Below, in pieces: positions 2,905 through 43,923 of a stretch of 57,259 bases of DNA; position 1 is the stretch's first letter; each line of letters begins with the position of its first letter. The DNA comes from Methanobacteriota archaeon (GTDB lineage Archaea > Thermoplasmatota > Poseidoniia > Poseidoniales > Thalassarchaeaceae). A program made the position numbers and the translations under genes. The notes under the pieces were generated by a model. It was not told the origin of the DNA, searched no databases, and was given only the letters and a program-made list of their open reading frames with translations. The stretch covers positions 1-57,259 of the forward strand of contig PBPH01000051.1 in assembly GCA_002725475.1 (NCBI GenBank), read 5' to 3'.

Positions 2905-3381
2905 ATGGAATTACATGAATTACAAAACAAAGACATCCCATCCATTTGGCTAATTAATCAAGAAGGGCTACCGGGAACAGGGGAAATATCTGAAAAAGAA
3001 ATTGCAGATTTACTCTCCATATCTGAACTTGCACTAGGGGCTTATGAAGAAAATGAATTAGTTGGATTTGTTCTCTGCCTTCCACCTAAGAAAAGATATG
3101 GAAGTCTAAACTATGCTTGGTTCAATAAAAGGTACGAAGATTTCCTCTATGTTGACAGAATAGCCGTATCTGAAAATCACCGAAACTGTAAAATTGGAAC
3201 TAAATTATACAAAGAGGTAATCTCTCATGCTGAAAAAAATAACTGTCCTATTGCAGCTGAAGTTAGTTTGAAACCACCAAATCCTGACTCATTGAGATTT
3301 CATGAAAGAAATGGTTTCAATGAAATTGGGATACTTCATCACGAAAGTAAATCTGTGACTATGATGATGCGATTATCTTGA
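2905..3381 (+). CDS. GNAT-family N-acetyltransferase
   Basis: 158 aa with a motif-A-like segment VDRIAVSENHRNCKIGTKLY and typical GNAT size. Confidence 0.7.
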   Translation: MELHELQNKDIPSIWLINQEGLPGTGEISEKEIADLLSISELALGAYEENELVGFVLCLPPKKRYGSLNYAWFNKRYEDFLYVDRIAVSENHRNCKIGTKLYKEVISHAEKNNCPIAAEVSLKPPNPDSLRFHERNGFNEIGILHHESKSVTMMMRLS

Positions 3382-10100: not shown

Positions 10101-12164
10101 TGAAGATTTTACTTTAATTGGTACGAGTATCGTGCCTGAACCCGTTGATGGTATTAGGTTGTTTAAAGAACTGACAAGTGAAGCACCATCAGCAGTTACA
10201 GTTGATAGCAAGGTTCCCTGTCTAGTCCATTCATCAGTGCCATCTCCCCCTATATCCAACTCAACATCCTTTGGAGCATTGGAGTATAGTGCCACCTGAA
10301 AATCTTCAAGAACTGGACTATTTACATTCCCAGAACCACCTGTGTAGAAATATATACAGAAGGTCAAATAATTGAAAGCAGATGAACCGAAATCAACTGA
10401 TTGACCAGGTGTATTATGTACTAAATTTTGCTGAGTACTACTACAAGATGTGGTCGAAGTCAGCCATTTGACAACTAAGTAAGAACTTCCAGGGGTAGTG
10501 GCATTCCACCAAACTGTTGCTGCAATTGGCCGTGATGTAGTTGTGCCTCCCATGTAACTGTACATGCGCATGTAACCATTCTGCACGTACGAGCCGGTGT
10601 AACTGATTGAAACAGAATCTAGGATTGCTGCCACACCGCTATTTGTGCTGTTAAGATATGCTCTCCAACCAAGTTGATTCCCACTGTTTGTAAAAGTCAC
10701 TTGAGAACCTAGTTGCGCGGATTTCCAAGTTTGTCCTCCATCATTGGTTACTTCATAATCAATGCTAGTTCCGGTGGGTTTCCAACTTATGGCTGCAGTT
10801 AGAGAAATAACATCAGTTGCCCGAGTAGCCGTAATCGCTGCAGAAGTGACAGTTGAATTTCCAGAAGGAACTCCCATTGAATATGCAACAGATCTTCCGC
10901 TAGTGATAATCTTGTGAGAACTTCCACTAGGGCATTGTGTATTGAAATAACAAGTCCAACCGATATTCCCTGAGTCGACACCTTCAATTCCTCGATGTGC
11001 TCGATTTGGAAATAGTATGTCTCCCTGGTGCTCATACCAATTTCCATCTTTTAGGAAAATCGAGTGCCAATTCTTTGCCTTACAGTAGTTGCTACTTGTG
11101 TAAGTACAATGAACATTAGCAGTCACACGATCACTAACAACATCTAGTCCACTCCCTTGGCCACTAGTAGTTGGTATACTCATCAATAGTTTTGTAGAGA
11201 GTGCAATAGTTGGGCTTGAGCGGTTGACATTCCATAGATAGTAATTGTAATTTGGATATGCATACAGTGCAGCAAGGACGTACATCTCTCCGTCAGTCGG
11301 ATCAAACGCAACTCCCCCCATGTAGTAGTTGCCTGATACTGTCCAGTATTGATTACAAGACCAAGTTCCGTTATTGACAGTCCATTTTGAAATGTATCTG
11401 TAACTCCAACTACTTACCCAAACAGTCCCATCCCCGTCACTAGTAATATCTGATATGTAGTAGAGGGAAGTAGTTGTGCAACTGTTGTATTGAATAGTTA
11501 CACTGCCAATTTGTGATCCAGTGCTAGAGTTATACCGATAGATTGTAGGGGCTAAGTATGCACTTGAACTAGACCACTGAGCAACATAGGTGGTGTTACC
11601 TTGAAAGACAGCCGGACCAGCATAGTTCCAACTACCTCCAGAGTAACTCAAATAGCTGTTTGTAGTTGCCCCTACCAAATCTGAAGTGGCAGAACTAATT
11701 GCTCCTCCAGTGGTGTTGTGGGTTGCCCCAACCGAGCTAGAAATATCATTTGAACTAGTTAATGTCCAACTAGCTTCATTCTGTAGTTCTCTCAGATATG
11801 CTTCATCATTATCAACATCTATGCTGTATTTGTAGTCACTTGCGAAGTATGGCACATTCATTTGTCCATCAGTAGTAGATGGGCCGCCGAAATCCGAATT
11901 ACTAGTTGCGTTAGCCCAACTAGTCATTGAAGGGGTGCCTGTGAGGCTGAAAGATGCTGATGTAACCTCTGCTCCAAAAGGCAAATTTACCCCTGCAGTA
12001 TCACCACTTCCAGAACCTGCAAAGGTGTGTGAAAAACTGGTACTTCCATCAGCAAATTGGGTTTCTGTAGTTGCAGCAGATGCGAACGGCAGCAAAGAAC
12101 AAATGAGCATTAGCGTAACTAAATTTATTGCGATAGACTTGATTCCTCGAGTCGTTCGAAGCAT
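7119..12164 (-). CDS. Giant secreted, C-terminally membrane-anchored surface protein (paralog of 38032..43911)
   Basis: The ORF is open to 12290, but that start overlaps the divergent gene at 12278. The ATG at 12164 gives a canonical signal peptide MLRTTRGIKSIAINLVTLMLICSLLPFASAA (alternative ATG at 12197). Other features are a BNR/Asp-box-like TNDGGQTWK, a CARDB-like segment near the C-terminus (ANLGGETFTEFSVSFYSGD...VDADNQIIEVDETDN), a single C-terminal TM helix and a poly-acidic tail DDEYDDDDEYDDDDDY. Confidence 0.8.
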   Translation of the reverse strand: MLRTTRGIKSIAINLVTLMLICSLLPFASAATTETQFADGSTSFSHTFAGSGSGDTAGVNLPFGAEVTSASFSLTGTPSMTSWANATSNSDFGGPSTTDGQMNVPYFASDYKYSIDVDNDEAYLRELQNEASWTLTSSNDISSSVGATHNTTGGAISSATSDLVGATTNSYLSYSGGSWNYAGPAVFQGNTTYVAQWSSSSAYLAPTIYRYNSSTGSQIGSVTIQYNSCTTTSLYYISDITSDGDGTVWVSSWSYRYISKWTVNNGTWSCNQYWTVSGNYYMGGVAFDPTDGEMYVLAALYAYPNYNYYLWNVNRSSPTIALSTKLLMSIPTTSGQGSGLDVVSDRVTANVHCTYTSSNYCKAKNWHSIFLKDGNWYEHQGDILFPNRAHRGIEGVDSGNIGWTCYFNTQCPSGSSHKIITSGRSVAYSMGVPSGNSTVTSAAITATRATDVISLTAAISWKPTGTSIDYEVTNDGGQTWKSAQLGSQVTFTNSGNQLGWRAYLNSTNSGVAAILDSVSISYTGSYVQNGYMRMYSYMGGTTTSRPIAATVWWNATTPGSSYLVVKWLTSTTSCSSTQQNLVHNTPGQSVDFGSSAFNYLTFCIYFYTGGSGNVNSPVLEDFQVALYSNAPKDVELDIGGDGTDEWTRQGTLLSTVTADGASLVSSLNNLIPSTGSGTILVPIKVKSSNAGKLDINNFQITYTMQTVNLNISWDEDMVLHETIDSYKVITRHVIGENANSITSATLDFIASPSNDAPSLTWNSDGTVLDNDPEDWIIPDASLTTSNNSNGIMEIQWAFKVTSHFVEQNNVGFKVSCTDDQGITPLFLSTGPAGIRVNQSYGLGWLKVRDNEGAALHDDIENNEWIKAGEVIHFQGAVWYDGTEDAPLDSTFDVAVIKRTTEGDFLQAKDRSNQYGEFFIPVAVDTIDRPDGVFYEVQIDNPRDPLKVLPVNSSWQRTIRVDASSPILVDASPADNAYEAGMDEQMVRIRIQDEVGSPEELTLHYWVEAEHDSNRNGLADAAEYLNQTMTNTTDDIDKLFFGYIDDSSNPNMARVSYYITGTDVAGNSLLRFDGPGFDYDLVTYRTRKDMDSVFTGLHWAGHEDGERAFAGTTQYLTLGLVDANGLIDFTDISLIFDFEGPDPERDQQRLSFSGVNNTFWTDDEYLVISPACNDISDYNCGAEVITNETGLPWIMVTFGFQFSWDWPDADLSDVALEFSQLGSPEPRRIIFTEHTFRVENDLVLDAETYTVEDVQEPRMGPVSDGSRVVPSDRLRWSGRVIYEGSDVPAPKNVGITVEVFDGVQYWSDGSLTDDGGFSIEVPLGAAPTLASSETRTFLSGVRNIPGRGEDMTRDAVSTTLQVHVDHAPPRVLERLAPIDVIDISNSSALQEVPVMFLGWEDADLSGSPQWVHWLIRDENQRQISSGSSLLGMLQDGQAINWTGTVDLIGDGMNPPLQDYEVGFWIEGWDSAGNPLAPEGNSKSDPVREPVDLNGDNELQWIRFGALGAQLTIDKISADKEIVANGAEIEITAWVANLGGETFTEFSVSFYSGDSEEPFATQKLNGIADEAIPISATWKAEKGVDRVVVIVDADNQIIEVDETDNSASVGISVEYAWGMGWVENARQNLLAVIGIIIAMIVLPIVAFVSMKGAITGRSELFEDDHLFDDEYDDDDEYDDDDDY

Positions 12165-12168
12165 AGGC

Positions 12169-12183
12169 GGTCCCCTAGGGACC
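12169..12183 (-). promoter_or_regulatory. GC-rich hairpin (GGTCCC-cta-GGGACC) 4 nt upstream of the proposed start codon of the giant surface-protein gene
   Basis: Perfect 6-bp inverted repeat read directly from the sequence. An analogous hairpin abuts the paralog at 43924..43940. Confidence 0.3.
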
Positions 12184-12277
12184 GTTCGGAGTTCCATTTC
12201 AATGCTTTGGGTATTAGATGAACACACTTTTACCAAAACAGTAACAACAAAGATGCTTTCGAAGAGGTTGGATTGCG

Positions 12278-13117
12278 ATGTCGGGAGCAAGGCAGTGGAA
12301 GAAATTCAAGCGGGCAATATCAAAACCATTTGAAGATGCGTGGGAGAGGCAAAGAGCCAATCATTTGGTCATCCTTGGAATGTTATCAGTGTTAGCAGTG
12401 GCATTGGTTGCTTGGGCAATCGCATTTTTCATGATTTTCTCTTCAAACGCACAACAGGAAGCCAATAGTTGGGAGAATTACACCGCTGTAACTTGGGTTG
12501 GAGTAATGCTAGCATTCGTGATTTTGATATTTGTGATTCCGGAATTTTTCCACTATTTGGGTGTCAGGAATTCTCTAGTTGAGATACTGGAAACAGATTC
12601 TCGGGCCGAGTTACAGAGCAACAAGCGAGAATTAGTGGAGGGTGTCAAATTACTTTCTGGTGCCTGGCCAGCGCGTTATGAGGCAAAAAAGCTAGAACTT
12701 GGGTTAAGAAAAGAGATGCCAGATGGCATGGAACTACCCGAAAATGATGGGGGTTGGATTAGTAATTGGTTCAGCACAAAAAACTCCAGATTTGTCGATC
12801 GCTTTCCAGATTCTACATTGTTACAAGATCCAGGCATTAACAAGATAATAATTGGTGTATCATTTACTGGACTATTTCTATTTCTTTACAACGCCACTTT
12901 TGGTTTAGCGAGGGAGGTGGTGGGTGGCCCCAGAAATATGACTGTGGATTTTACAGCAATTGCTAAAGGTTCAGAATACAGTGCTACTTGGGCTCCTCAC
13001 ATGGATTTGATTGGCACGCTCATAATTCTAATGCTTGCTACCATTCTATTCATGACCACTCCAACTCCTTCAGAATACTCTGAAGACACTAGCGATTCTA
13101 ATTCCGAAGAGGAGTGA
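12278..13117 (+). CDS. Multi-pass membrane protein of unknown function with an acidic C-terminal tail
   Basis: 279 aa with several hydrophobic helices (e.g. LVILGMLSVLAVALVAWAIAFFMIF). Ends in SEDTSDSNSEEE. No recognisable catalytic motif. Confidence 0.5.
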   Translation: MSGARQWKKFKRAISKPFEDAWERQRANHLVILGMLSVLAVALVAWAIAFFMIFSSNAQQEANSWENYTAVTWVGVMLAFVILIFVIPEFFHYLGVRNSLVEILETDSRAELQSNKRELVEGVKLLSGAWPARYEAKKLELGLRKEMPDGMELPENDGGWISNWFSTKNSRFVDRFPDSTLLQDPGINKIIIGVSFTGLFLFLYNATFGLAREVVGGPRNMTVDFTAIAKGSEYSATWAPHMDLIGTLIILMLATILFMTTPTPSEYSEDTSDSNSEEE

Positions 13118-13133
13118 TGGGAGCGAAAGGAAG

Positions 13134-14057
13134 ATGGCCAACCCCTTGGGCTGGGCGCGTGAAGCGCTTCTTGCAATAGGCTTAATCTCGCTACTCGTGG
13201 TTGGTCTATGGGCGGCGACCGGTTCCCTCCCTCCAATGGTTGTGGTAGAATCATCATCAATGATGCACGACTCTGAAGGTGAGATAGGCGCTATAGATCC
13301 TGGTGATTTGGTATTAGTAATGTCAACCAATCGTAGAACAAATATCGTTAGTATGGCGGAAGCTATGGAAGAGAATGGGCAATGGGAGGGCTGGGTTTCG
13401 CATGGAAAACCAGGTGATGTGATAATTTACAAAAAGAATGGTGGAAATGATACACCTGTGATTCATAGAGTAATTCTTGAAGCAGTTGCAAATCAAACAT
13501 TAACTCCGACTGATAGGGAATTAGGTCTTTGTTCGGAGGGTAGTTGGGATCCAATTAGTATCGACGCAGATGGTGATGCAGGAACTTGCGTACTTACATG
13601 GGATGCACCTGGCACAACAGTAAGGAATCAACCCAACATCAATTGGACGTTTGATGAAATCACTTGCCCAGGTAATCCTCACGGATTAATCGTTCAAGAA
13701 TGGGACCCCGGTCATGCAGGTTACCTAACTCTGGGTGATAACAATAGGTGTGATGTTGATCAAGGTGACCGTGCCTATCAACTTGCAGGCGGGCTAACCG
13801 ATGAAAATGGCGACAGAGTTGAAGCCGTACGTTCAGATTGGGTTGTCGGTGTTGCTGGAGCAGAGATTCCGTGGCTGGGTACAGTTAAGTTGGCTGCCTC
13901 ATCAAATTCAGCCCAAGTTACAGGACATTCATGGAGAATGCTTGGTATCAGCGCAATAATATTACTAGGTGCGACGTTCATGGTAGAACAAGTAACTGAG
14001 AGATTATTGGGAAGGTCTCCCGAAATCTCCCAAGCCATGTTAGAAGAAGAAGAATGA
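13134..14057 (+). CDS. Signal peptidase I, archaeal/eukaryal (S26B, Sec11-like) type, with a large insertion
   Basis: N-terminal TM helix, then VVVESSSMMH (catalytic Ser box), GDLVLV, PVIHRVI (His box) and LTLGDNNRCDVDQ (GDNN box). About 85 aa of Cys-containing sequence lie between the His and GDNN boxes. C-terminal TM helix and acidic tail. Confidence 0.7.
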   Translation: MANPLGWAREALLAIGLISLLVVGLWAATGSLPPMVVVESSSMMHDSEGEIGAIDPGDLVLVMSTNRRTNIVSMAEAMEENGQWEGWVSHGKPGDVIIYKKNGGNDTPVIHRVILEAVANQTLTPTDRELGLCSEGSWDPISIDADGDAGTCVLTWDAPGTTVRNQPNINWTFDEITCPGNPHGLIVQEWDPGHAGYLTLGDNNRCDVDQGDRAYQLAGGLTDENGDRVEAVRSDWVVGVAGAEIPWLGTVKLAASSNSAQVTGHSWRMLGISAIILLGATFMVEQVTERLLGRSPEISQAMLEEEE

Positions 14058-14072
14058 AAATTCCATCTTGCA

Positions 14073-15566
14073 TTAAATTAACAGTGGCCAAATAATCATA
14101 ATCAAGAACATAAATAGTATGATTAAACTAGAGAACCCCGAAATTCGATTAACAGTTTTCTGTACTTTTAGAGGATGTGAGTTAGGTGAGAATTTCGCAA
14201 AGAATGCCAAGTAGTCATGCAATCTGTCTTTGAGAAGGTGGCCCCCATCGAATGGTAGTAATGGGATTAGATTAGCAAAACCAAGGAGCACATTCATCCA
14301 AATTATCCAAAAGAGTAGGTGTAGCAAGGCAGAAGTTAGAGTTGGGCCGATAAAAGAATCTGTAGTTAGCAATTCTGCTTCATTTGGATGCATGATTTCC
14401 CCCTTGAAAACGATTGGACTAGAAATGATTTGTAAAGGCTGTAAAGCGAAACCAAAAGCAACACTGAGCGGATCTTTAGGGGCATCATGTGCGAGCGGAC
14501 CTGCCAATCTTTTAGCCCCTTCTCCATTTGAGGCAAGTCCACTTACTCCTAGAAATGCATCCCCTTCAGAAATTCCATATGCATCGATTATCGCAGGGTC
14601 TGTTCCTTGTTCAATCGCATATTGATAATGGTCTGCTAAGGTCAAAGAAATTTCTCTCATCTCTCTATTTCCTTCTTCGTTTGGTAGAGAAAGAACTGTG
14701 AGAGTGATGTTGTCACCTGCCTTATGTGAATCAAGGAACGTAGTAAATTCAGAGTAATCACTGACCTCGGTTCCATTTGCATGAGTGATAATTTCCCATG
14801 GCTGTAATCCAGCATCATCTGCTGGTTGTTCCACAATGATTCCTTCTGCATGTACTCCTGCGATAGTCGGAGTCATAGTGTTGGCAACCAAAGCCAAAAT
14901 GAGAAAGCACAGAAAACCACCGTAGATGTTCACCGCTGGGCCGGCCGCAAAAACTCGCTGCCGCTCTTTTCTGGGTGCCCGTAACAATTCGCTCCCCTCG
15001 GGTTCTGCAAATGCCCCAATTGGAATCAATCCAACGATTAAAAGCCCAAAACTCCGCACTCTCATTCCGTGTGCTCTTGATAGAATCCCATGACCGTACT
15101 CGTGAACAACCAATGCTACGATTAGACCAATTAAACCCCAAAACAGTGGAATCGTGGGTGTAATTCCTGGAATTAGTAGCAATTCAGACGGGGTTGCAGA
15201 GGGGACATCTGAAGGTTTTGCCAACATCAAAATGAAATTCATTGTGAAGAGTAATAGAACGATAGCACTAACTAATCTGCAAGTCCATAACCCTACTTCT
15301 CCAAATATCCTCCATGCTTTACGAGGTTTTGAAATGAAATCCAATACCTTTTGTCCTCTCTCCGTCCTAATCATCAATAGAATCCCCAACACGCGGCTAG
15401 CATTCCATTTGTCTAGAATGCCGTTTGTTTCAAGTTGTTTGAGTAGATAGTACCAACCTACTATGATCAGTATAGACCAATGAATTTGAACAGCTAATAT
15501 TCCTGCAATAATAAGAAAAATTAACCTAACATATCTGGATGGACCAGCATCAACCTCTTCCTGCAC
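14073..15566 (-). CDS. Site-2 protease (M50 family intramembrane zinc metalloprotease) with a PDZ domain
   Basis: 497 aa with HEYGHG (HExxH) inside a TM region, the C-terminal NLIPLLPFDGGH motif (NxxPxxxxDG) and a soluble PDZ-like insertion between them. Confidence 0.85.
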   Translation of the reverse strand: MQEEVDAGPSRYVRLIFLIIAGILAVQIHWSILIIVGWYYLLKQLETNGILDKWNASRVLGILLMIRTERGQKVLDFISKPRKAWRIFGEVGLWTCRLVSAIVLLLFTMNFILMLAKPSDVPSATPSELLLIPGITPTIPLFWGLIGLIVALVVHEYGHGILSRAHGMRVRSFGLLIVGLIPIGAFAEPEGSELLRAPRKERQRVFAAGPAVNIYGGFLCFLILALVANTMTPTIAGVHAEGIIVEQPADDAGLQPWEIITHANGTEVSDYSEFTTFLDSHKAGDNITLTVLSLPNEEGNREMREISLTLADHYQYAIEQGTDPAIIDAYGISEGDAFLGVSGLASNGEGAKRLAGPLAHDAPKDPLSVAFGFALQPLQIISSPIVFKGEIMHPNEAELLTTDSFIGPTLTSALLHLLFWIIWMNVLLGFANLIPLLPFDGGHLLKDRLHDYLAFFAKFSPNSHPLKVQKTVNRISGFSSLIILFMFLIMIIWPLLI

Positions 15567-15653
15567 ATACCTTGCTCAACTCCTTCTGTTTTGAACCTGC
15601 GCCCGTTCATCAAAGGGTAGTTATCAAAGAGGATGAACTCTACCCGGCCAATA

Positions 15654-15841
15654 TGGAGGAATCCAGATCAGCTAGAATTTCCTCTCAAAGTGTTGAGCGC
15701 CGGCTTTCAGATTTGAAGCGAGAAGTGGATGCAATCAAGCGCATATTATCTCAAGCATCTCTTAATCGTTTAACTGCAGAAGTTGAGCGCCAAGAAACTG
15801 ACATCAATGTAATTGAAGAAGATTTACACCGTAGTATCTAG
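15654..15841 (+). CDS. Possible small coiled-coil protein (62 aa)
   Basis: This is the downstream ATG of the listed ORF 15539..15841; the upstream part overlaps the S2P gene. The sequence is heptad-like (RRLSDLKREVDAIKRILSQ...). No homology recognised. Confidence 0.25.
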
Positions 15842-15848
15842 AAATTTA

Positions 15849-17021
15849 TTAATCAGTGGAAGATTCATATTTCTCATTTTCATTCAAATATGTCATTACT
15901 TGTTCAAAATAACTATCTATTAATTGTCTGAGAGAATCTTCACTTACACTCACTCCCCTAAACTCTGTTATGGATTTATCAAAACGCAATTTTATATTTT
16001 GTATGATCTGCAGCGGGTCATCATTAGCCGTTGCTTTTCGCCAATCTCTGTCTTTCAATTTTATTGATTCATCATAAGGAAAAACAACACTAGCAATCCT
16101 CATAATGATCTTGTCCCTGCGTAACCTAGTGAATAACTGCTTAAAAGCTTCATTTAGTTCATCAGTACTTTGAATTTGATTTTTTATTTGCATGTATAAG
16201 ATAATACCCTCAGCAAATTCACTGGGTTTTTCTGGTAATCTCAAACCACTTCTCGAAGAAGTATTGAATCCCTTAATTTTGGGAAAATTCTTTGCTAACT
16301 CTTCTTCAGAAATCTCTTCTATAAGTTGAGTATTATCAATTAAGACGCGTTTTGTTTGTTTAGGTGGTTTATTTTCCTTACTTGTATTGTACCCAAAGAT
16401 TCTGTCGAAGAGCCTGATTCCTAAGGATCGGGAAGATTTTGATTTAATGGATTTTGATACGTTTTTATTATAATTCGATGATCTATTAAATTCATAATTT
16501 GGTTCATCACCAACTTTCCACTTGGATGCTCTTCCAAATGCTCTCTTTGGAGACAAAGGAAATGTCTCACCACCCGTTCTAAATTCCATAAATTTTTGTT
16601 GAATTGTTGGAGTTATAGTTTGGGCTAGGGGGGGGTCATCGATAGAAATGTTACACCAAATTAAGAATCTTTTAACATTAGTCCAATTTTCTGGATAATT
16701 CTTTCGGTATGGGGGGTGGCCAAGTATTGCCTGCATTACCTGATTTCTTGCACCGTTACATAATACACATATCTGTATTTTATTCTGAAGTACATTTACA
16801 CCACCGAGTCCAATAGGATACACATGTTCAGTATTGTGATTTGCACCTTCAAATCTAACCCCGCATAAAGGGCATTCAGCATTTGAATTTACTAGGAATG
16901 TCACTCGCTCTCTTGATAAATTACTACGTGTTTTCGCCTTTTCCTTCTTATTTTCAAGGAACTTCTTGGCATCTTTCAAGGTATTTTCATACCTTTTCTC
17001 CAAATCGAACATATCAGTCAT
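15849..17021 (-). CDS. HNH endonuclease domain protein with a C-terminal domain of unknown function
   Basis: 390 aa. Zinc-finger HNH signature CPLCGVRFEGANHNTEHVYPIGLGGVNVLQNKIQICVLCNGARNQ (CxxC...H...N...CxxC) at aa 50-92 (nt 16746-16874). The start ATG overlaps the upstream stop (ATGA at 17018-17021). The gene is visibly AT-rich. Confidence 0.75.
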   Translation of the reverse strand: MTDMFDLEKRYENTLKDAKKFLENKKEKAKTRSNLSRERVTFLVNSNAECPLCGVRFEGANHNTEHVYPIGLGGVNVLQNKIQICVLCNGARNQVMQAILGHPPYRKNYPENWTNVKRFLIWCNISIDDPPLAQTITPTIQQKFMEFRTGGETFPLSPKRAFGRASKWKVGDEPNYEFNRSSNYNKNVSKSIKSKSSRSLGIRLFDRIFGYNTSKENKPPKQTKRVLIDNTQLIEEISEEELAKNFPKIKGFNTSSRSGLRLPEKPSEFAEGIILYMQIKNQIQSTDELNEAFKQLFTRLRRDKIIMRIASVVFPYDESIKLKDRDWRKATANDDPLQIIQNIKLRFDKSITEFRGVSVSEDSLRQLIDSYFEQVMTYLNENEKYESSTD

Positions 17022-18265
17022 GATGCCACCTCTTCTTCGGAGATCAATTTTCTATATTCTTCAAGTTTTGTTGAATGTTCCTTGTTGTTAGCCCACTCAT
17101 TCCAATCTGCCCTCATTTTTTCCATTGCCTCATCATTTACAGGAACTAAAGTAAATTTACCTGATTCACGTGAAATCAGCAACAATAACATCCAATCCAT
17201 TTCGCAACCTTGAAGGTAAAGTGCAACCTGTTTGCAGTAATTTGTCTTCCACTTATATCTGAAAATTGATTGTTGATTTTCATCTTCAACTTCAAATGGG
17301 AATAACTTGAGAGTCTTTGTTTCTACGGGAATTCCTTGGAAAGATAAATCCGGTGTCCCACTAACTGTCACTCCCAATTCTTTACACTCAAACCAAATCC
17401 GCTCTCCAGAACTCCAATCATCAGAAGAGATATTCTTGAAATTGGAACTCAAGAACTCATCAAAAGCATGTCCAATTTCAATTACCCCAACCGGAGCAGA
17501 CCTAATTGGCCTAATCTTCAACTTTCTCCATTCTGCAATTTTAGATATGACTTGCTTGAATTTTCGATAGTCTTTCAAATCAGATACCCGCAAATACCTA
17601 GTCTTATAATTATACAACTCAAATACTTCGGGAGGCTTCATTTCAACTCTATTCAATATTTTTTCAAGTTCTCGACCGGCTTCTTCAGCAATACCATCAG
17701 CTATCGGATTATCTATCACTCCGATTTGCCCCTTACTAATGGTGTGGTGAGGGACAAACTCCCATTCAATACCGTTTAGGAATTTGTCAAACCATTTTTT
17801 TGAGTCATCGGAAACTTTTGAAAGTTGCCTTGGTTGTCGTGTGCAGTGAATTTCAGCAACATTAGAATCAAATTGATCTCCACAATCTCTACATCTCCAT
17901 TGGTATGGTTTTGATAAATAACGGGAAGTAGGTGCATTTCCATCATTTTTCTTTCCTTTTGCAACTTTTCCGCTTTTATTGACGAGCGGGCTGTTCTTGT
18001 TTGTTAGGATTAAAGGGGGTTGTCCAGAAGCTGTAATAATGACCAAATTCTTTGCAGGATTCGTGCCCTTGGAATTCTTATTTTTCCACACCTTTGATTG
18101 ATATTTAATAGCCCCCTTTGGTGCCTTTCCATCTTGTGCAATCCAAAGTCTAACAAGCACCAAATCATCATGGATTTTTTCTTCTATGTCATTTACAACT
18201 TTATGTTCTTCAGAGCGATTCTCGGAATACCAATCTTTCCAATCTTTCAATGTACCCTCTAGCAT
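17018..18265 (-). CDS. RecB/Cas4-like PD-(D/E)xK nuclease domain protein
   Basis: 415 aa. The C-terminal half carries GHAFDE (motif I-like), GTPDLSF (D306), PVETKT (E315-x-K317) and QVALY (QxxxY, aa 346-350), in the order typical of RecB-family nucleases. A CxxC...HC zinc-ribbon-like element lies at aa 125-141. AT-rich. Confidence 0.65.
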   Translation of the reverse strand: MLEGTLKDWKDWYSENRSEEHKVVNDIEEKIHDDLVLVRLWIAQDGKAPKGAIKYQSKVWKNKNSKGTNPAKNLVIITASGQPPLILTNKNSPLVNKSGKVAKGKKNDGNAPTSRYLSKPYQWRCRDCGDQFDSNVAEIHCTRQPRQLSKVSDDSKKWFDKFLNGIEWEFVPHHTISKGQIGVIDNPIADGIAEEAGRELEKILNRVEMKPPEVFELYNYKTRYLRVSDLKDYRKFKQVISKIAEWRKLKIRPIRSAPVGVIEIGHAFDEFLSSNFKNISSDDWSSGERIWFECKELGVTVSGTPDLSFQGIPVETKTLKLFPFEVEDENQQSIFRYKWKTNYCKQVALYLQGCEMDWMLLLLISRESGKFTLVPVNDEAMEKMRADWNEWANNKEHSTKLEEYRKLISEEEVAS

Positions 18266-18364
18266 ATTTTCACTTCATGATGAGCACTCTGGGTGCTCTA
18301 ATCAAGCATTGAAAAGAGGCGACCCTATTTGAACTACAACCTATGAAGGATTAGAAAACAAATG

Positions 18365-19486
18365 TTAGGGGCGATTTTTATCATCTACTTGGAGGCCGGG
18401 TTTCTTTGAAATATATATTCTCCACCATGCCTTGAGAACCCCACTGCCATATGACCAGTGTAATAGAAAAGTCATTACAGGCGCAACAAAAACGGTTGCT
18501 AATGATCTTGACGGCGAACTTCCTTTTGCTGCACCCAACCAACAAATTAGCACGTATATATAGGCAAGACTTACTGGAAGATGCACTGATGTTCTGGGGT
18601 GCCCAAATGGTACAGATGACGTTGAAATGTCCCAGAATTCAGGCCATGCGAGGCCGCCATTCATGGCACCCCAAACAAAAGCGACTAATGCAGAAACAAC
18701 TAGAATGGGAAATAGTCCAACAGCATCATGGCTCCATTCCTTCATTCCAGGATGAATCTTACTAGCAAGAATTCTGACAAGACCATAGTTCTGGATTTGT
18801 TTCCTTACTCTAGAGGGATTTCGTCGTCGGTGCCACATAATGGCAGAACGGTCCGTCCACAATTTGTGCCCTGCTTGTTCTATTCGATAATCCAACATAG
18901 CGTCTTCACAACCAATTGCCCCATCATCGAAACCACCAACTTCGTCAAGAACAGATTTTCTGTAAGCAGCATTTACACCTGGAAGTTGTTTTGCCGGTTC
19001 TAACTCAACGGTGCCTCGTTTTCCATAAACCGTTCCTGCAGTAACCCATTTTGAGCAGAACGTCACATCAATAACTCTCTGCCAAAATGTTGAGCGACTA
19101 TCTGGGGGTGCGAAATTGGGCCCACCAACTCCTGCAACCTCATCTCGGTCAAACCATGAAATTAATTTCTCAACCCAATCATCAGGAACCCAAACATCAT
19201 CATCCGTGAACATTACGATATCACAATCTATTTCCCTCAAAGCAACATTACAAGCATCAGCTCTGGTACGAGAACCTTCGTCATCTACAAATCTTGCCCC
19301 ATTTGCCAATGCAACTTCTTTACCAGGATCATCAGAAGGCCCTACGACTACAACATCCAGTACCCCTTCTTCATCAATAGGCCATGTTTGATTACTTAGC
19401 CCATTAAGGACAATATCCAATTCTTCGTGATTACGAAGACTAGGGATGATTACGCAAACTCGCATGCCCTCATCACCACTCCCCAT
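18365..19486 (-). CDS. Family-2 glycosyltransferase with C-terminal transmembrane region
   Basis: VCVIIPSLRN N-terminus, FTDDDV (DxD) and GCEDAMLDYR, followed by several TM helices. Alternative start ATG at 19465. Confidence 0.8.
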   Translation of the reverse strand: MGSGDEGMRVCVIIPSLRNHEELDIVLNGLSNQTWPIDEEGVLDVVVVGPSDDPGKEVALANGARFVDDEGSRTRADACNVALREIDCDIVMFTDDDVWVPDDWVEKLISWFDRDEVAGVGGPNFAPPDSRSTFWQRVIDVTFCSKWVTAGTVYGKRGTVELEPAKQLPGVNAAYRKSVLDEVGGFDDGAIGCEDAMLDYRIEQAGHKLWTDRSAIMWHRRRNPSRVRKQIQNYGLVRILASKIHPGMKEWSHDAVGLFPILVVSALVAFVWGAMNGGLAWPEFWDISTSSVPFGHPRTSVHLPVSLAYIYVLICWLGAAKGSSPSRSLATVFVAPVMTFLLHWSYGSGVLKAWWRIYISKKPGLQVDDKNRP

Positions 19487-19577
19487 ACAGGGCCGACTAG
19501 GGTCCGCATTTCAAGGCTAATGTGTTAAAGTCATGCACAGAGAGGTTTGATTAGGGATGTACTAGTGTGCGGTTAAC

Positions 19578-21944
19578 ATGAAATTAAGCCATTTACTGTT
19601 ATTGATATTGCCGCTGGCGGCCATTAGCCCAATGTTGCAGTTAGGTGACAGTAATCTTGAGACAATAGAAACCCATAATCAATCAGCAAAATCCAGTTCA
19701 ATTATGGTAGTGAATGAAAAAATAAATTGGTCATTTTCAAATGGCGACTATATGATTTATGATTCGACTAACATGTCTGAAGATATGCGCTCGAACATGG
19801 CAGGAGACCCTCATTGGGATCAAGTTGTTCTTAATTGGGCGGATGTAATCCGCATCGATTTTCTCCAAGATGAGGCATGCACTGTCGCATCATATAATGG
19901 GCAATGTCATAAGAGACAAATGAAAACCCAAATGAACATTACAGGCGAAAACAACACAAATAATGAAAAGATGTCAATGAATATTTCAATTCAGAATACA
20001 AATTTGATTCCTTTAACCTATTCTGGTTGGGAAGTGGAGATAATTGAAACAAATACTAGGATGTGGATGGGTGAATTGACTACAGGGCATTTGGAGTTTA
20101 GATCAGATAGATGGGTAAACTCAACAAATGAAATTGAGACCACAGGTTGGCAGTCTAATTACACTGTAGGCACATCTTGGAATGAGCATACACATACTTG
20201 GACCAATTCTACAACTGAAGAATTTAGCGAATTTAATCATAGTGGGAACTGGATGCCAAATTATTTCACTGACTCTGAGTCACTCGATGAAGAAAAAGAT
20301 TGGTTCTATGATGCCACACAAGAAGTACCAGTTACGTTCAATGGATACAATTTAGCAAACAGCGCAGGATCGAGCCCAACTACGTTAGATGGGATTTTGC
20401 TTGAGGTATGGGAGGACGATAAGGGGAATCTAATCCAAGAGCAATCTGAACATTACGGGGAGTATGGATATCCTTTATCTATGGCTGGAGGCGATATAAC
20501 TGAACTCTACCATTCTTTTGGTGCCACGATGGGTTCTGACACCGATGGTGATGGTGTTAGCGATGGCTCAGATTTATGCCCAAATACTCCTCCTGGTTCT
20601 ACGGTGGATTCTGATGGCTGCACTTGGGACGAAAGAGACGATGATGGCGATGGGGTGTTGAACCCTGCTGATAATTGTGCAGACACAACCTCATCGATGA
20701 CAGATGTCGATGCGCAGGGTTGCGCCTATGAACAGCGGGATGATGATAGCGATGGAGTGCTGAACCCTGCAGATCAATGCCCAACTACAGCAGCCAATTC
20801 TAATGTCGATAGTAATGGGTGCGCTCCTTATCAATTGGACTCAGACAACGATACTGTATCCGATGCTAATGACAGTTGTCCCGGCCATGATGATTTAATT
20901 GACGTTGACGGCGACGGAACTCCTGATGGGTGTGATACTCTAATTGATAATGATGGAGACGGAATCAGCAACGCAGCAGATTTGTGTGAAGGTCATGATG
21001 ACTCCATAGATATTGATCAAGATGGGACCCCTGATGGTTGCGATTCATTAATCGATTCAGATTCAGATGGGGTTGCGGACAGTAATGATCTATGCCCTGG
21101 TCATGATGATAGCATAGATGTAGATAGCGATGGCATTCCAGATAATTGCGACTCATTAATCGATTCAGACTCAGATGGAGTTTCAGACGGCACCGATGCT
21201 TGCCCTGGTTTTGATGACAGTGTTGACGCAGATTCAGATGGCATCCCTGATGGTTGTGATGACTTCGTCGATTCGGATTCAGATGGGGTTGCAGACTCAG
21301 ATGACAAATGCTTGGGATATGATGATACTATTGATTTAGATTCTGATGGCATTCCTGATGGTTGTGATTCACTACTCGATTCTGATGGTGACGGTGTTTC
21401 TGACACAAACGATCAGTGCCCAGGTTACATCGATAGTTTTGATGCAGATTCAGATGGAATACCAGATGGTTGTGATGATTTAATTGACAATGATGGAGAT
21501 GGTGTCTCTAATGGTCAGGATTTGTGTCCAAGTACTGATTCTGGTGTCACAGTGGATGATACCGGCTGTAAGAAGATAGTAACTTCTTCTACTTCAGAGG
21601 CAAGTGGGGGCTTTTCTCCAATAATGGCAGGAGGATTGATTGCCGCAGTGATTGTTGCTATATTGGTGGTAGTATTCGTCATGAGACAAAGAAGCTCTCA
21701 ACCCAGAGTTGATGAAGGGATTCCTGATTTGGGGGGCCCTTCCGCAAAACCAACAAGTTCACCTTCTGGTAACGCCTTCTCTCCATCTGTTGCTGCCGCT
21801 CCACCAATGCCAGCGCAGCCTCACCCATCGCAATCAGGAGAAGTACAACCTAACGGATACGAGTATCTCGAACATCCTGCAAATTCAGGTAATTGGTGGT
21901 ATCGAACCCAAGAGAACAGCAATTGGTTTGAATGGCAAAGATAA
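19578..21944 (+). CDS. Secreted, C-terminally anchored protein with thrombospondin type-3-like calcium-binding repeats
   Basis: Signal peptide MKLSHLLLLILPLAAISPML. About 10 DxDxDGxxDxxDxC units, of which 6-7 form 36-aa tandem repeats (e.g. DSLIDSDSDGVADSNDLCPGHDDSIDVDSDGIPDNC). TM helix IMAGGLIAAVIVAILVVVFVM and a Pro-rich tail. Confidence 0.8.
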   Translation: MKLSHLLLLILPLAAISPMLQLGDSNLETIETHNQSAKSSSIMVVNEKINWSFSNGDYMIYDSTNMSEDMRSNMAGDPHWDQVVLNWADVIRIDFLQDEACTVASYNGQCHKRQMKTQMNITGENNTNNEKMSMNISIQNTNLIPLTYSGWEVEIIETNTRMWMGELTTGHLEFRSDRWVNSTNEIETTGWQSNYTVGTSWNEHTHTWTNSTTEEFSEFNHSGNWMPNYFTDSESLDEEKDWFYDATQEVPVTFNGYNLANSAGSSPTTLDGILLEVWEDDKGNLIQEQSEHYGEYGYPLSMAGGDITELYHSFGATMGSDTDGDGVSDGSDLCPNTPPGSTVDSDGCTWDERDDDGDGVLNPADNCADTTSSMTDVDAQGCAYEQRDDDSDGVLNPADQCPTTAANSNVDSNGCAPYQLDSDNDTVSDANDSCPGHDDLIDVDGDGTPDGCDTLIDNDGDGISNAADLCEGHDDSIDIDQDGTPDGCDSLIDSDSDGVADSNDLCPGHDDSIDVDSDGIPDNCDSLIDSDSDGVSDGTDACPGFDDSVDADSDGIPDGCDDFVDSDSDGVADSDDKCLGYDDTIDLDSDGIPDGCDSLLDSDGDGVSDTNDQCPGYIDSFDADSDGIPDGCDDLIDNDGDGVSNGQDLCPSTDSGVTVDDTGCKKIVTSSTSEASGGFSPIMAGGLIAAVIVAILVVVFVMRQRSSQPRVDEGIPDLGGPSAKPTSSPSGNAFSPSVAAAPPMPAQPHPSQSGEVQPNGYEYLEHPANSGNWWYRTQENSNWFEWQR
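20531..21569 (+). repeat. In-frame coding tandem repeats (about 108-nt period over 20838-21480) encoding TSP3-like Asp/Cys units
   Basis: Repeated gattcagattcagatgg.../gatggcattcctgatggttgtgat blocks are visible in the DNA and in the translated protein. Confidence 0.85.
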
Positions 21945-22024
21945 GTTGCCCTACGGGCAAATATTACCCATTCCGCCATCCGAAAAGATTTGAAAGCACC
22001 CCCTCCTCTGAGGTTTTGGTTATC

Positions 22025-23062
22025 ATGGCTTTAGGTAGCGGTATTAGATTGAACAGCGCAATGAGTATCTTATTGGTGGCTCTACTAATTTTGGGTGGGA
22101 TGGCTTCTATGTCATCACTCGAAATGAGCGATGCTTCTGCTTCCGGTGGCAATGAAAATTCTGATGACAGCTCATCTAAAAGTAATTTGAAAGCGGGCTC
22201 CAATGCCGAATGGTTGGACAAATGCAAAGACTACAATCTAGATGATTCGAAAGCAGATTGGTTAGGTTTCAATGAAAGAAGCAGAACAGATTTTCTTAAC
22301 ATTCACCGATTGCAAGAAGTTTCCGAAGATGCTGAGGGAAGAGAATCTGCTGGCAACAATACTGCTGAAACAGAATCTGATGAGGTTGATTGGCATCTAC
22401 CAGATTACGTTACTGTGGTTCGTACGGAGGTAGGTTATACAATCTCAATCATTGATGCTGGTGTAACGAATACTGAGAACTATACTGAAGAGGAATTTGC
22501 AATCTTTCTTGAGAGATTTGGGTGGGAGTCTGAAGAAGACGAGTCCGCTGAAAGGGAAAGAGATAGGGGCGAAATCCGGGAGCGGGTAGCGGATTTGAGA
22601 GAAGCCTGTGAAAATGGTGATGGCGACTCTTGCCGAGAATTGCGTGGCTTGATGGAACGGTTCAGACAAGAGTACGACCAGAGAGATAGGCATGAGCGAG
22701 ATCCTCCTGCACTGCGTCTTGATCATCTTGATGATGGCACTATTATTGCTCATAGGGAATTCAGCGATGGCTCTATTCAGTACGATATTATCAGCACAGC
22801 GGATGATGGTGAGATTACCGTGGTTAGAGTATCTGCATGGGGTACTGAAGTGATTCACCCACAAGAAAAGGGTGAGCACCGTAAAGGAGAGTTTGAGAAG
22901 AAAGACACCTCTGACGCATTCCATAAATTCTCTTCATCTATGTCCGAAGAAGACATCAAGAAAAACTGTCAAGAATTCTTTGGCGACTCCTCACCAAGAA
23001 TGGATATTGATTTCGATAGATTAGATCGAGTTCCAGTAGAACAAAAATCTGAAAGAAGATAA
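22025..23062 (+). CDS. Acidic secreted or membrane-anchored protein of unknown function
   Basis: The listed ORF starts at 21932 and overlaps the previous gene. The ATG at 22025 gives MALGSGIRLNSAMSILLVALLILGGMASMSS (signal/anchor). The remainder is rich in E/D/R. Confidence 0.5.
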   Translation: MALGSGIRLNSAMSILLVALLILGGMASMSSLEMSDASASGGNENSDDSSSKSNLKAGSNAEWLDKCKDYNLDDSKADWLGFNERSRTDFLNIHRLQEVSEDAEGRESAGNNTAETESDEVDWHLPDYVTVVRTEVGYTISIIDAGVTNTENYTEEEFAIFLERFGWESEEDESAERERDRGEIRERVADLREACENGDGDSCRELRGLMERFRQEYDQRDRHERDPPALRLDHLDDGTIIAHREFSDGSIQYDIISTADDGEITVVRVSAWGTEVIHPQEKGEHRKGEFEKKDTSDAFHKFSSSMSEEDIKKNCQEFFGDSSPRMDIDFDRLDRVPVEQKSERR

Positions 23063-23162
23063 TTTACATTATTTCCTCCTTCAGTATTCAGTACTTTCGC
23101 GTAGCGAAGGCTTTTGTACCCTCTTCAAGGAGAGGCAATATCGAGGGGGCGTGGGCACCGAC

Positions 23163-23906
23163 ATGATGAATATTACAGCTAGGCAAGATACCTTTAGAAT
23201 GGTAGTCGATATCTTATCCACGTTGGTTGAAGAGGCGCGCTTTAATTTTGAGGACGACAAACTTGTAATCAGAATTGTTGATCCTAGTCATGTAGCCATG
23301 ATTCAAATGGAAGTTGACTCGGCAGCGTTTGAATCCTGGGAGGTCGCAGAAACAGTGTTGGGCTTGGAATTATCTAAAATTTCCAAACTAGTTCAACTGG
23401 CTGGTGCGGGTGATTTAATCGTTATGAATTACAATGACGCTGTAGGAAAGGTAGAGTTCCAAGTTGGCGAAATTCAAAGGACAATCCGCCCACTTGATAG
23501 ACAAAATATGCAGGAGCCAAAAGTACCGGAACTTGATACCAACATTTCAGTTAGCCTTACGGGAGCAAAGTTTTCTCGTGCCCTCAAAGCCGCTGATCAA
23601 GTTGGGGATTTGGTAACGTTCTCAATAGATCAAAACAGATTCAGTGTCAATGTGACTGGTGAATCCGATGCTGTAAATGTTAGTTATGAATCCGGAGAGT
23701 TACAAGAGTTAGTTTGTGATAATCCTGTGAAAAGCCAATACAGCCTTCAATACTTGCTTCCACTGGCTAAGCGAATAGAAGCAACAGTTGAAACAGTAAC
23801 AGCCAAATTTGGTGAAAACTATCCCCTAAGGCTTGAATTTACTTTCGCCGACGGTGGTGCGAATGTCATTTACTTCCTAGCCCCAAGGGTCGAAGGGGAC
23901 GCGTAA
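23163..23906 (+). CDS. pcn: DNA polymerase sliding clamp (PCNA)
   Basis: About 247 aa with the typical archaeal PCNA N-terminus pattern (FRMVVDILSTLVEEARFNFEDDKLVIRIVDPSHVAM...). The ORF is open from a GTG at 23151. The ATG at 23163 follows a GAGGGGG Shine-Dalgarno-like element. Confidence 0.9.
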   Translation: MMNITARQDTFRMVVDILSTLVEEARFNFEDDKLVIRIVDPSHVAMIQMEVDSAAFESWEVAETVLGLELSKISKLVQLAGAGDLIVMNYNDAVGKVEFQVGEIQRTIRPLDRQNMQEPKVPELDTNISVSLTGAKFSRALKAADQVGDLVTFSIDQNRFSVNVTGESDAVNVSYESGELQELVCDNPVKSQYSLQYLLPLAKRIEATVETVTAKFGENYPLRLEFTFADGGANVIYFLAPRVEGDA

Positions 23907-43911: not shown

Positions 43912-43923
43912 GTTCCTCACCAT

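What the first reader, a model, noticed from the sequence alone, without database searches (positions are those of the whole stretch)
15849..18265. AT-rich two-gene island: a RecB/Cas4-like PD-(D/E)xK nuclease translationally coupled to an HNH nuclease (candidate defence or mobile module)
Seen in sequence: two minus-strand genes overlap by ATGA (17018-17021). They sit between conserved housekeeping genes (S2P protease and a GT2 glycosyltransferase). The upstream protein has the D...ExK...QxxxY motif order (GTPDLSF, PVETKT, QVALY) plus a zinc-ribbon-like CxxC...HC. The downstream protein has a zinc-finger HNH (CPLC...EH...N...CVLCN) followed by about 290 aa with no recognisable domain. My hand counts on sample 60-nt lines gave roughly 23-38% G+C inside the island and about 48% in the flanking S2P gene. 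Inference: the composition shift, the dual nucleases and the operonic coupling are typical of horizontally acquired anti-virus systems or remnants of mobile elements. No methyltransferase, ATPase, integrase or CRISPR array accompanies them, so the pair does not fit the classic restriction-modification or Cas4 contexts I know.
Basis: partly seen in the sequence, partly recalled or inferred. Interest (0 to 1): 0.65.

Follow-up and report, generated by a model that had tools for sequence, protein, structure and literature searches.

The report
Optional HNH cassette docked on nuclease gene
In a marine group II archaeon, a resident Cas4-like nuclease gene carries a strain-variable HNH nuclease gene inserted exactly at its stop codon; this is probably an uncharacterised nuclease pair used in genetic conflict, not an imported two-gene island.

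Summary
The sequence observations hold. Two minus-strand genes overlap by ATGA. The nuclease motifs are invariant in homologues, and the predicted folds agree. The "AT-rich imported island" reading is only half right.

Gene X (17018-18265) is a Poseidoniales-only protein with a zinc ribbon and a Cas4/RecE-like nuclease domain. In relatives it sits at the same GT2-X-S2P position without the HNH gene. Its low G+C comes from amino-acid composition; third-position G+C is native.

The HNH gene (15849-17021) is a 1.18-kb cassette inserted between X's last Glu codon and its stop codon. It carries its own GAGGTG ribosome-binding-like sequence.

All five closest HNH lineages sit on X with this same junction, in two X clades whose downstream flanks are unrelated. 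X alleles 99.3-100% identical occur with and without the tail that marks the insertion.

The HNH nuclease half tracks the X clade. Its acidic C-terminal domain is shuffled across clades.

Neither protein matches a known defence system or any viral gene.

Best reading (about 0.45): X is the constant nuclease and HNH an optional, modular partner in a conflict module. Main rival (about 0.25): a free-standing homing endonuclease.

The parts
17018..18265 (-). Gene X: 415-aa nuclease restricted to Poseidoniales. It is resident and syntenic in relatives.
   Evidence: ORF. 65 homologue clusters, and every named one is from a Poseidoniales-type archaeal MAG. The same position is kept in relatives.
17936..18265 (-). 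X N-terminal basic domain (aa 1-110, pI 9.6). It is absent from the short (~300 aa) family members and is replaced by an NT5C nucleotidase in P0045.
   Evidence: Alignment; pLDDT 85-94; pI; NT5C fusion.
17843..17893 (-). X zinc ribbon CxxC...HC (C125, C128, H140, C141).
   Evidence: Invariant or near-invariant in 38 sequences. Weak Zn_ribbon_8 hits in 7 members.
17021..17638 (-). X PD-(D/E)xK nuclease domain (aa 210-415), Cas4/RecE/lambda-exonuclease-like. Catalytic motifs D306, E315-x-K317 and Q346xxxY350 lie at 17216-17350.
   Evidence: Invariant residues. Foldseek: 4ic1 at 1.1e-4, plus 8d3l, 3h4r and 8xa9; viral exonucleases down to 3e-6.
17018..17038 (-). Docking junction. GAAGAAGAG (the last Glu codons of X) is followed by GTGGCATCATGA. 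This holds a Shine-Dalgarno-like GAGGTG (17027-17032), an added VAS tail on X, and the ATGA stop/start overlap.
   Evidence: The same junction is seen in L011-13, L036-41.
15849..17029 (-). The 1,181-bp insert relative to empty alleles. It is the whole HNH gene plus its 5' leader.
   Evidence: Filled versus empty alignment against L014, L001 and L015.
16482..17021 (-). HNH N-terminal nuclease domain (aa 1-180, basic). The zinc-finger beta-beta-alpha-metal core is aa 50-93 (16743-16874).
   Evidence: HNH_5 at 1.7e-5; invariant motif; pLDDT >90; pI 9.3.
15852..16304 (-). HNH C-terminal helical domain (aa 240-390, acidic, pI 5.7). No known fold match. It is exchangeable among X-linked HNH genes.
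15846..15848 (-). A second TAA directly after the HNH stop codon. It aligns with the original stop codon of X in empty alleles.
15539..15841 (+). Conserved small convergent ORF (62-aa conserved core), of unknown function. It marks the right border of the insertion site.
   Evidence: no Pfam match.
14073..15566 (-). S2P (Peptidase_M50 + PDZ) flank.
18365..19486 (-). GT2 glycosyltransferase flank.

Best explanation
The locus is composite.

Shown:
- X is a resident nuclease restricted to Poseidoniales. It has a basic N-terminal domain, a CxxC...HC zinc ribbon and a Cas4/RecE-like PD-(D/E)xK domain.
- It keeps its chromosomal position in relatives and usually stands alone.
- The HNH gene is a strain-variable 1.18-kb cassette. 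It is docked between X's last Glu codon and its stop codon.
- The cassette carries a GAGGTG ribosome-binding-like sequence. Its start codon overlaps the new X stop codon, so it is set up to be translated by coupling to X.

Inferred:
- The two act as a nuclease pair in genetic conflict (anti-virus or anti-mobile-element).
- The basic HNH half nicks or cuts target DNA, under the control of its exchangeable acidic C-terminal domain (a sensor or regulator).
- X, a Mg-dependent end-processing exonuclease of the Cas4/RecE type, then resects or destroys the ends.
- X alone supplies a basal DNA-end-processing function, and HNH is an optional add-on kept polymorphic in populations.
For: - All five closest HNH lineages with upstream DNA follow X with the same ATGA junction, in two X clades with unrelated downstream flanks.
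- The dependence runs one way. These five X-linked HNH lineages always follow X, whereas most X alleles lack HNH.
- The HNH nuclease half co-diverges with X: 83% identity within clade A, 81-84% within clade B, and 55-59% between clades. The last 85 aa of X are 59-69% identical between clades.
- The C-terminal domain groups across clades instead: 63% and 38% across clades against 23-34% within. It is acidic in four of the five X-linked lineages (pI 5.0-5.7; P0054 8.3), so it is unlikely to bind DNA. That fits a sensor or regulator under diversifying selection.
- X behaves like a conflict gene:
  - it evolves faster than its flanks (72-82% against 78-94% amino-acid identity);
  - it was found in only 22 species genomes;
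  - it is reduced to a 54-codon stub in L046;
  - in clade B it borders a slot holding an NsnB-like ATPase, an HNH_2 nuclease and type II methyltransferases.
- Catalytic residues of both nucleases are invariant.
Against: - No physical or functional interaction has been shown.
- Most X genes work without HNH.
- PADLOC has no model for X and only weak HNH-domain hits.
- The association with defence genes is seen in only one clade and is not statistical.
- The precise, repeat-flanked insertion and the strain-level gain or loss fit a selfish mobile gene equally well.
- Co-divergence of the N-terminal domain with X could be plain vertical co-inheritance.
Confidence: 0.45

Rival explanations
1. The HNH gene is a free-standing homing endonuclease. 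It cuts HNH-less alleles at or near the X stop-codon junction. Recombinational repair from an HNH-bearing copy then copies the cassette in, and the insertion destroys the target site. X is only the landing site and the source of expression.
For: - The insertion point is identical in three filled/empty comparisons in two clades with unrelated right flanks: window vs L014; L039 vs L019; L011 vs L004/L016/L021.
- X alleles 99.3-100% identical occur with and without the tail.
- Short GAAGAAGAG direct repeats flank the cassette in clade B, and a degenerate copy is present in L036.
- Paralogues sit as single-gene inserts between housekeeping genes.
- The architecture (catalytic domain plus a variable tail) and the expression from the upstream gene resemble phage T4 MobE-type elements (PMC2790892, PMC2988022).
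Against: - The presumed recognition domain is hypervariable, is acidic in four of the five X-linked lineages, and is shuffled, although the putative target is conserved.
- The nuclease half tracks the X clade rather than spreading across it.
- No protective substitutions or co-conversion signal appear in the last 230 nt of X.
- No degenerate copies were seen.
- Genetic exchange in these uncultured archaea is uncharacterised.
Confidence: 0.25
2. The HNH is a solitary restriction-type nuclease (Type IV-like or orphan Type II-like) with no functional link to X. An ancient chance insertion behind X was inherited, then lost many times by slippage between the GAAGAAGAG repeats or by recombination with empty alleles.
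For: - Weak PADLOC hits to an HNH Type II REase (8.8e-4; 5.3e-5 for P0056) and to PtuB.
- In L011 the homologue lies 4-7 kb from two type II methyltransferases.
- The flanking repeat offers a simple route to precise deletion.
Against: - The junction and coupling are kept in all five lineages over a divergence of about 57% identity.
- No methyltransferase lies within about 5 kb in the window.
- No modification-reader domain was detected.
- Clade-A cassettes lack a clean repeat, yet empty alleles exist at 99.3-99.5% X identity.
Confidence: 0.15
3. One reading: X and HNH together form one horizontally acquired AT-rich two-gene defence or mobile island.
For: - G+C dips over both genes.
- Both are nucleases and are coupled.
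Against: - X is syntenic without HNH in the closest relatives.
- Its third-position G+C is native (0.329 against 0.334), and the dip reflects amino-acid composition.
- The insert boundaries enclose only the HNH gene.
- A housekeeping GNAT gene in the window is equally AT-rich.
Confidence: 0.05

Closest known systems
Cas4 / RecB-family PD-(D/E)xK nucleases (e.g. SSO0001, PDB 4ic1; type I-C Cas4, 8d3l)
   Same: The fold of the C-terminal half matches, and the D...ExK...QxxxY motif order is invariant.
   Different: - No conserved Fe-S cysteines in the nuclease domain.
- An upstream CxxC...HC zinc ribbon and a basic N-terminal domain instead.
- No cas genes or CRISPR context.
- No Pfam Cas4 or PDDEXK hit; only about 15% identity.
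RecE / lambda exonuclease / YqaJ and MGME1 / EXO5 end-processing exonucleases
   Same: Structural matches of similar strength, which suggests 5'-to-3' end processing.
   Different: - No partner annealase.
- Not viral.
- The architecture and lineage restriction are unique.
Free-standing HNH homing endonucleases of phage T4 (MobE and relatives; PMC2790892, PMC2988022)
   Same: A single HNH ORF placed next to a conserved gene, sporadic among close relatives, with an N-terminal catalytic domain and a variable C-terminal part.
   Different: - Lies in a cellular archaeal chromosome.
- The C-terminal domain is acidic in most lineages and shuffled, although the site is the same.
- No cleavage data and no co-conversion signal.
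HNH effectors of defence systems (Type II/IV HNH restriction enzymes; PtuB of Septu)
   Same: A zinc-finger HNH core, with weak profile hits; the related loci lie in a defence-rich neighbourhood.
   Different: - No PtuA-type ATPase or methyltransferase partner here.
- The scores are far below membership level.
- The partner is a Cas4-like nuclease, a pairing that no PADLOC model matched.

Membership tests
Cas4 (DUF83 / PF01930) family | RecB nuclease motifs D, ExK, QxxxY | tested here: met
   D306, E315, K317, Q346 and Y350 are invariant in 38 sequences. Foldseek 4ic1 at 1.1e-4, probability 1.0.
Cas4 (DUF83 / PF01930) family | Four conserved cysteines binding an Fe-S cluster around the nuclease core | tested here: not met
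   The only invariant cysteines are C125, C128 and C141 of the upstream zinc ribbon. None lies in aa 210-415.
Cas4 (DUF83 / PF01930) family | Sequence-profile membership and a CRISPR-cas neighbourhood | tested here: not met
   No Pfam, NCBIfam or PADLOC Cas4 hit. The PHROG Cas4 hit is only E 0.11. No Cas family appears in the Pfam lists of neighbouring genes in the loci where genes were called.
HNH endonuclease (PF01844 / PF14279) | Beta-beta-alpha-metal core with catalytic His, Asn residues and two CxxC zinc ligand pairs | tested here: met
   C50, C53, H62, E65, H66, N80, C85, C88 and N89 are invariant in 22 sequences. HNH_5 scores E 1.7e-5 (25.0 bits against a 27.5 cut-off) for the window protein, and 21 of the 23 homologue clusters carry the Pfam assignment.
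Free-standing homing endonuclease | Nuclease ORF beside a conserved gene, with precise presence/absence among close relatives | tested here: met
Free-standing homing endonuclease | Site-specific cleavage of the endonuclease-less allele | not testable with these tools
   Needs purified protein and empty-site DNA.
Free-standing homing endonuclease | Co-conversion tracts or protective substitutions in flanking DNA; phylogeny incongruent with the host gene | tested here: inconclusive
   No fixed differences in the last 230 nt of X. The N-terminal domain is congruent with X, while the C-terminal domain is not.
Catalogued anti-phage defence systems (PADLOC-DB v2) | Profile hits to the system's component proteins in the required gene set | tested here: not met
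   X has no hit. HNH has only weak domain-level hits: REase_II 8.8e-4, PDC-M01B 4.4e-3, PtuB 7e-3.
Type II restriction-modification | Cognate DNA methyltransferase next to the nuclease | tested here: not met
   Genes from 12278 to 23906 are a membrane protein, an SPase-like gene, S2P, the small ORF, HNH, X, GT2, a TSP3-repeat protein, an unknown gene and PCNA. Methyltransferases are present only in the related locus L011.

The most novel reading that the evidence does not exclude
X plus HNH is a previously undescribed two-nuclease immunity locus specific to marine group II archaea. X is the constant component. The HNH partner exists as a null allele and several ancient C-terminal domain types. 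These are kept across clades by balancing selection (a trans-clade polymorphism), all docked on one stop codon.
Probability: 0.25. Interest if true: 0.7.

Novelty: new variant of a known kind. Interest (0 to 1): 0.5.

Why it matters
Marine group II archaea are among the most abundant planktonic archaea, yet they are uncultured and no characterised defence or mobile-element system could be assigned at this locus.

- This locus gives a concrete, testable candidate: a lineage-specific Cas4-like nuclease family with a docked, polymorphic, modular HNH partner.
- The 3-aa tail on X (EEEV[AV]S or EEVAP instead of EEE) appears to mark cassette presence. It was confirmed in every lineage with DNA in hand, so strain-level cassette frequency could be read from metagenomic protein or read data.
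- If the homing reading is right instead, it would be a rare case of a free-standing HNH homing gene in a cellular archaeal chromosome.
- It is also a caution that AT-richness caused by amino-acid composition can mimic an imported island.

Tried and rejected
- Sequence profile of X against PDB sequences: no hit even at E <= 10.
- Pfam on all 38 X homologues: only noise-level hits.
- Exhaustive HMMER search of 1.84 billion representatives: 45 hits, no bridge to a named family. Pfam on 10 distant hits gave nothing useful.
- Foldseek of the HNH model: no significant match, and none for the C-terminal domain.
- Viral origin: no homologue in IMG/VR by pattern scan, nor in GenBank phages by tblastn.
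- tRNA or integrase-type integration site at the variable slot: no tRNA at the junctions, and no integrase family among the called neighbouring genes.
- RNA-guided (IscB/Cas9-like) reading prompted by weak NCBIfam hits: there is no RuvC domain, and Rfam found only a tRNA in the window.
- Idea that the HNH family generally docks on genes ending in EEE: rejected, because the paralogues follow genes with other C-termini.
- Search for protective substitutions in HNH-bearing X alleles: none.
Full report

Yes. Two minus-strand ORFs occupy 17018-18265 (415 aa, here called X) and 15849-17021 (390 aa, HNH). The minus strand reads GAAGAAGAGGTGGCATCATGACTG, so the X stop codon TGA and the HNH start codon ATG overlap as ATGA at 17018-17021.

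The flanking genes are a Peptidase_M50/PDZ site-2 protease and a family-2 glycosyltransferase. It is conserved in relatives and forms the right border of the site.

**2. The proteins.**

*X.* X has no Pfam, NCBIfam or PADLOC family.
- In an alignment of 38 homologues, D306, E315, K317, Q346 and Y350 are invariant. So are E263/G265/D269 and the zinc-ribbon cysteines C125, C128 and C141; H140 is nearly invariant.
- The AlphaFold model is confident (pLDDT 89.9).
- Its C-terminal half matches Cas4 SSO0001 (E 1.1e-4), type I-C Cas4, MGME1, RecE and lambda exonuclease, and viral Cas4/YqaJ-type exonucleases.
- X lacks the Fe-S cysteines of Cas4. Instead it has an upstream CxxC...HC ribbon and a basic N-terminal domain (pI 9.6).
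- Short family members lack that N-terminal domain. In one member it is replaced by an NT5C deoxyribonucleotidase.

*HNH.* The protein has three parts.
- A basic N-terminal domain of about 180 aa holds an invariant zinc-finger HNH core.
- A disordered basic linker follows.
- The C-terminal domain is helical and acidic, and has no match.

**3. Composition.**

The G+C dip exists, but it is an amino-acid effect. Gene-level G+C is 0.345 (HNH) and 0.378 (X), against 0.425 +/- 0.025 for the window's genes. Third-position G+C is 0.286 and 0.329, against 0.334 +/- 0.034. Both proteins are rich in K/N/I/F/Y (0.33 and 0.30, against about 0.2). A GNAT acetyltransferase gene elsewhere in the window is just as AT-rich. 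Composition therefore does not show recent import.

**4. Distribution and context of X.**

The X family is small and closed.
- It forms 65 clusters among 5.8 billion proteins.
- The exhaustive search of 1.84 billion representatives gave 45 hits, about 17 of them clear family members.
- Every cluster that carries an organism name is from a Poseidoniales-type archaeal MAG.
- It was found in 22 species-representative genomes by a pattern-limited scan.
- No viral homologues were found.

In the closest relatives the order is GT2-X-small ORF-S2P, without HNH. The flanks are 78-94% identical, while X is only 72-82% identical. A second clade (here B) has X between a 585-aa gene and ThrRS. Other clades place X beside PyrB/PyrI or TtuA.

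X is dispensable. In L046 only a 54-codon stub remains, and L045 lacks it.

In clade B the slot between X and ThrRS varies:
- nothing;
- an NsnB-like AAA_15/21 ATPase plus a 382-aa gene;
- an HNH_2-type nuclease;
- the HNH homologue plus three unknown genes and two type II methyltransferases;
- in other contigs (L018, L019), genes that look like housekeeping genes from their sequence (named from my own reading, not profile-tested).

**5. The HNH gene is a docked cassette.**

*Boundaries in the window.* Alignment of the window with the empty alleles L014, L001 and L015 shows that exactly 1,181 bp (17029 to 15849) are inserted. The insert lies between the last Glu codon of X and its stop codon. 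A second TAA right after the HNH stop codon aligns with X's original stop codon. The insert begins GTGGCATCATGA. Together with the preceding GAG, this forms a Shine-Dalgarno-like GAGGTG five bases before the ATG, and it adds the tail VAS to X.

*The same junction elsewhere.* All five closest HNH lineages for which upstream DNA exists show this junction. They are the window's own HNH (P0052), P0053, P0054, P0055 and P0056. In each, X ends EEEV(A/V)S or EEVAP and is followed by ATGA. They lie in both clade A and clade B, whose downstream flanks are unrelated.

*Filled and empty pairs in clade B.* L039 (filled) and L019 (empty) share the sequence beyond the stop codon (TGACGCTAAGAAAGTGG...). L011 compares in the same way with L004, L016 and L021. 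In clade B the HNH ORF itself ends GAAGAAGAG and uses X's old stop codon, so the insert is flanked by a 9-bp direct repeat. L036 keeps a degenerate copy of the repeat, and the window has none.

*More distant paralogues.* They are single genes in other contexts and do not follow genes ending in EEE.

**6. Strain-level polymorphism.**

The tail on X appears to report the cassette. Every HNH-bearing locus with DNA in hand has it, and every empty locus ends EE/EEE.
- In the 90% cluster of the window's X, six alleles end EEEVAS and two end EEE, at 99.3-99.5% identity.
- In the next cluster, five end EEEV(V/A)S and nine end EEE, at up to 100% identity.
- A third cluster has only EEE.
- Among cluster representatives, 2 of about 60 carry the tail.

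Gain or loss is therefore recent and precise.

**7. Mosaic evolution of HNH.**

The N-terminal nuclease domains group with the X clade: 83% identity within A, 81-84% within B, and 55-59% between them. This parallels the last 85 aa of X, which are 59-69% identical between clades.

The C-terminal 150 aa group across clades instead. P0053 (A) and P0056 (B) are 63% identical, and the window (A) and P0054 (B) are 38% identical. Same-clade pairs are only 23-34% identical. The C-terminal domains are acidic in four of the five lineages (pI 5.0-5.7; 8.3 in P0054), while the N-terminal domain and linker are basic.

No fixed nucleotide differences separate HNH-bearing from HNH-less X alleles in the last 230 nt, apart from the junction itself.

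**8. Interpretation.**

*Shown:* X is resident, HNH is an optional cassette docked on X's stop codon, and both keep intact catalytic residues.

*Inferred:* the function. I favour (about 0.45) a conflict module in which X is the constant end-processing nuclease and HNH an optional partner whose exchangeable acidic domain senses or regulates. The reasons are:
- the one-way dependence of HNH on X;
- the co-divergence of the nuclease half with X;
- the shuffled, largely acidic C-terminal domain;
- X's behaviour as a fast-evolving, patchy, sometimes decaying gene;
- the defence-rich slot next to X in clade B.

The main rival (about 0.25) is a free-standing homing endonuclease of the T4 MobE kind (PMC2790892, PMC2988022). 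It explains the identical insertion point, the repeats and the strain polymorphism well. It does not explain why the presumed recognition domain varies while the site stays constant.

A solitary restriction-type HNH with no link to X (about 0.15) needs an ancient chance insertion whose coupling was then kept in every lineage.

**9. Comparison and novelty.**

X works like a Cas4/RecE-type nuclease, but it fails the Cas4 membership tests for Fe-S cysteines, sequence profile and cas context. HNH is a bona fide HNH domain, but the protein is not a member of any catalogued system. No PADLOC model matches the pair.

I rate this a new variant of a known kind (nuclease-based conflict or mobile modules), with moderate interest (0.5). 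The precise stop-codon docking, the tail that reports the cassette and the cross-clade domain types are unusual and testable. Function remains inferred.

Noticed in passing
window 17021-17038 (X), 13134-14057(+), 12278-13117(+); HNH homologues P0056, P0065-P0073: Conserved -EEE (or -EE) C-termini occur in 4 of 102 conserved ORF clusters: X, the HNH family, an SPase-like protein and a 279-aa membrane protein. About 0.03 clusters would be expected by chance for EEE. The HNH insertion masks X's EEE tail with VAS, and in clade B the HNH protein takes over the EEE end. This may be a C-terminal signal of unknown meaning.
   Followed up: partly
window 15539-15841 (+): A small convergent ORF (100 aa as listed; 62-aa conserved core). 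It looks coiled-coil-like, is conserved in L001, L014 and L046, and has no family match. It is probably a real, unannotated small protein.
   Followed up: partly
L004 9401-12032; L006 9295-10255; L011 1461-7952: In a sister clade, the slot between X and ThrRS holds different defence-type cargo. L004 has a 382-aa gene plus an NsnB-like AAA_15/21 ATPase (PADLOC 2.4e-54). L006 has an HNH_2-type nuclease. L011 has three unknown genes (743, 253 and 175 aa) plus two type II methyltransferases.
   Followed up: partly
protein P0045 (relative of X): In one X family member, a 5'(3')-deoxyribonucleotidase (NT5C, Pfam 2.3e-10) replaces the N-terminal domain. This hints at a link between X and nucleotide or DNA breakdown.
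   Followed up: no
window 16293-16323 vs 17024-17054: A 31-nt stretch inside the HNH linker (encoding ...IEEISEEELA...) is 74% identical to the 3' end of X (...KLISEEEVA...). It may be a recombination footprint at GAAGAAGAG microhomology, or a chance match in low-complexity sequence.
   Followed up: no
L046 4046-4725: X is reduced to a 54-codon N-terminal stub followed by about 540 bp of unrelated DNA, in a relative whose S2P is 83% identical. This is a natural knockout of X.
   Followed up: yes
window 2905-3381 (+): A GNAT acetyltransferase gene is as AT-rich as the supposed island (G+C 0.352, third-position G+C 0.252).
   Followed up: yes
proteins P0059-P0074 (HNH paralogues); loci L009, L010, L042, L051: HNH paralogues not linked to X carry repeated copies (two or more, counted by eye) of a module of about 45 aa (..G..I......G.....T..FL...GL..GLKKAI..). 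They sit singly between housekeeping genes in several contexts.
   Followed up: partly
window 25088-33544, 38032-43923, 7119-12290 (all -): Three giant ORFs (2818, 1963 and 1723 aa), not examined here. The L001 homologue of the 1723-aa ORF carries a CARDB domain, and the 1723-aa protein ends in an acidic DDDDDY tail.
   Followed up: no
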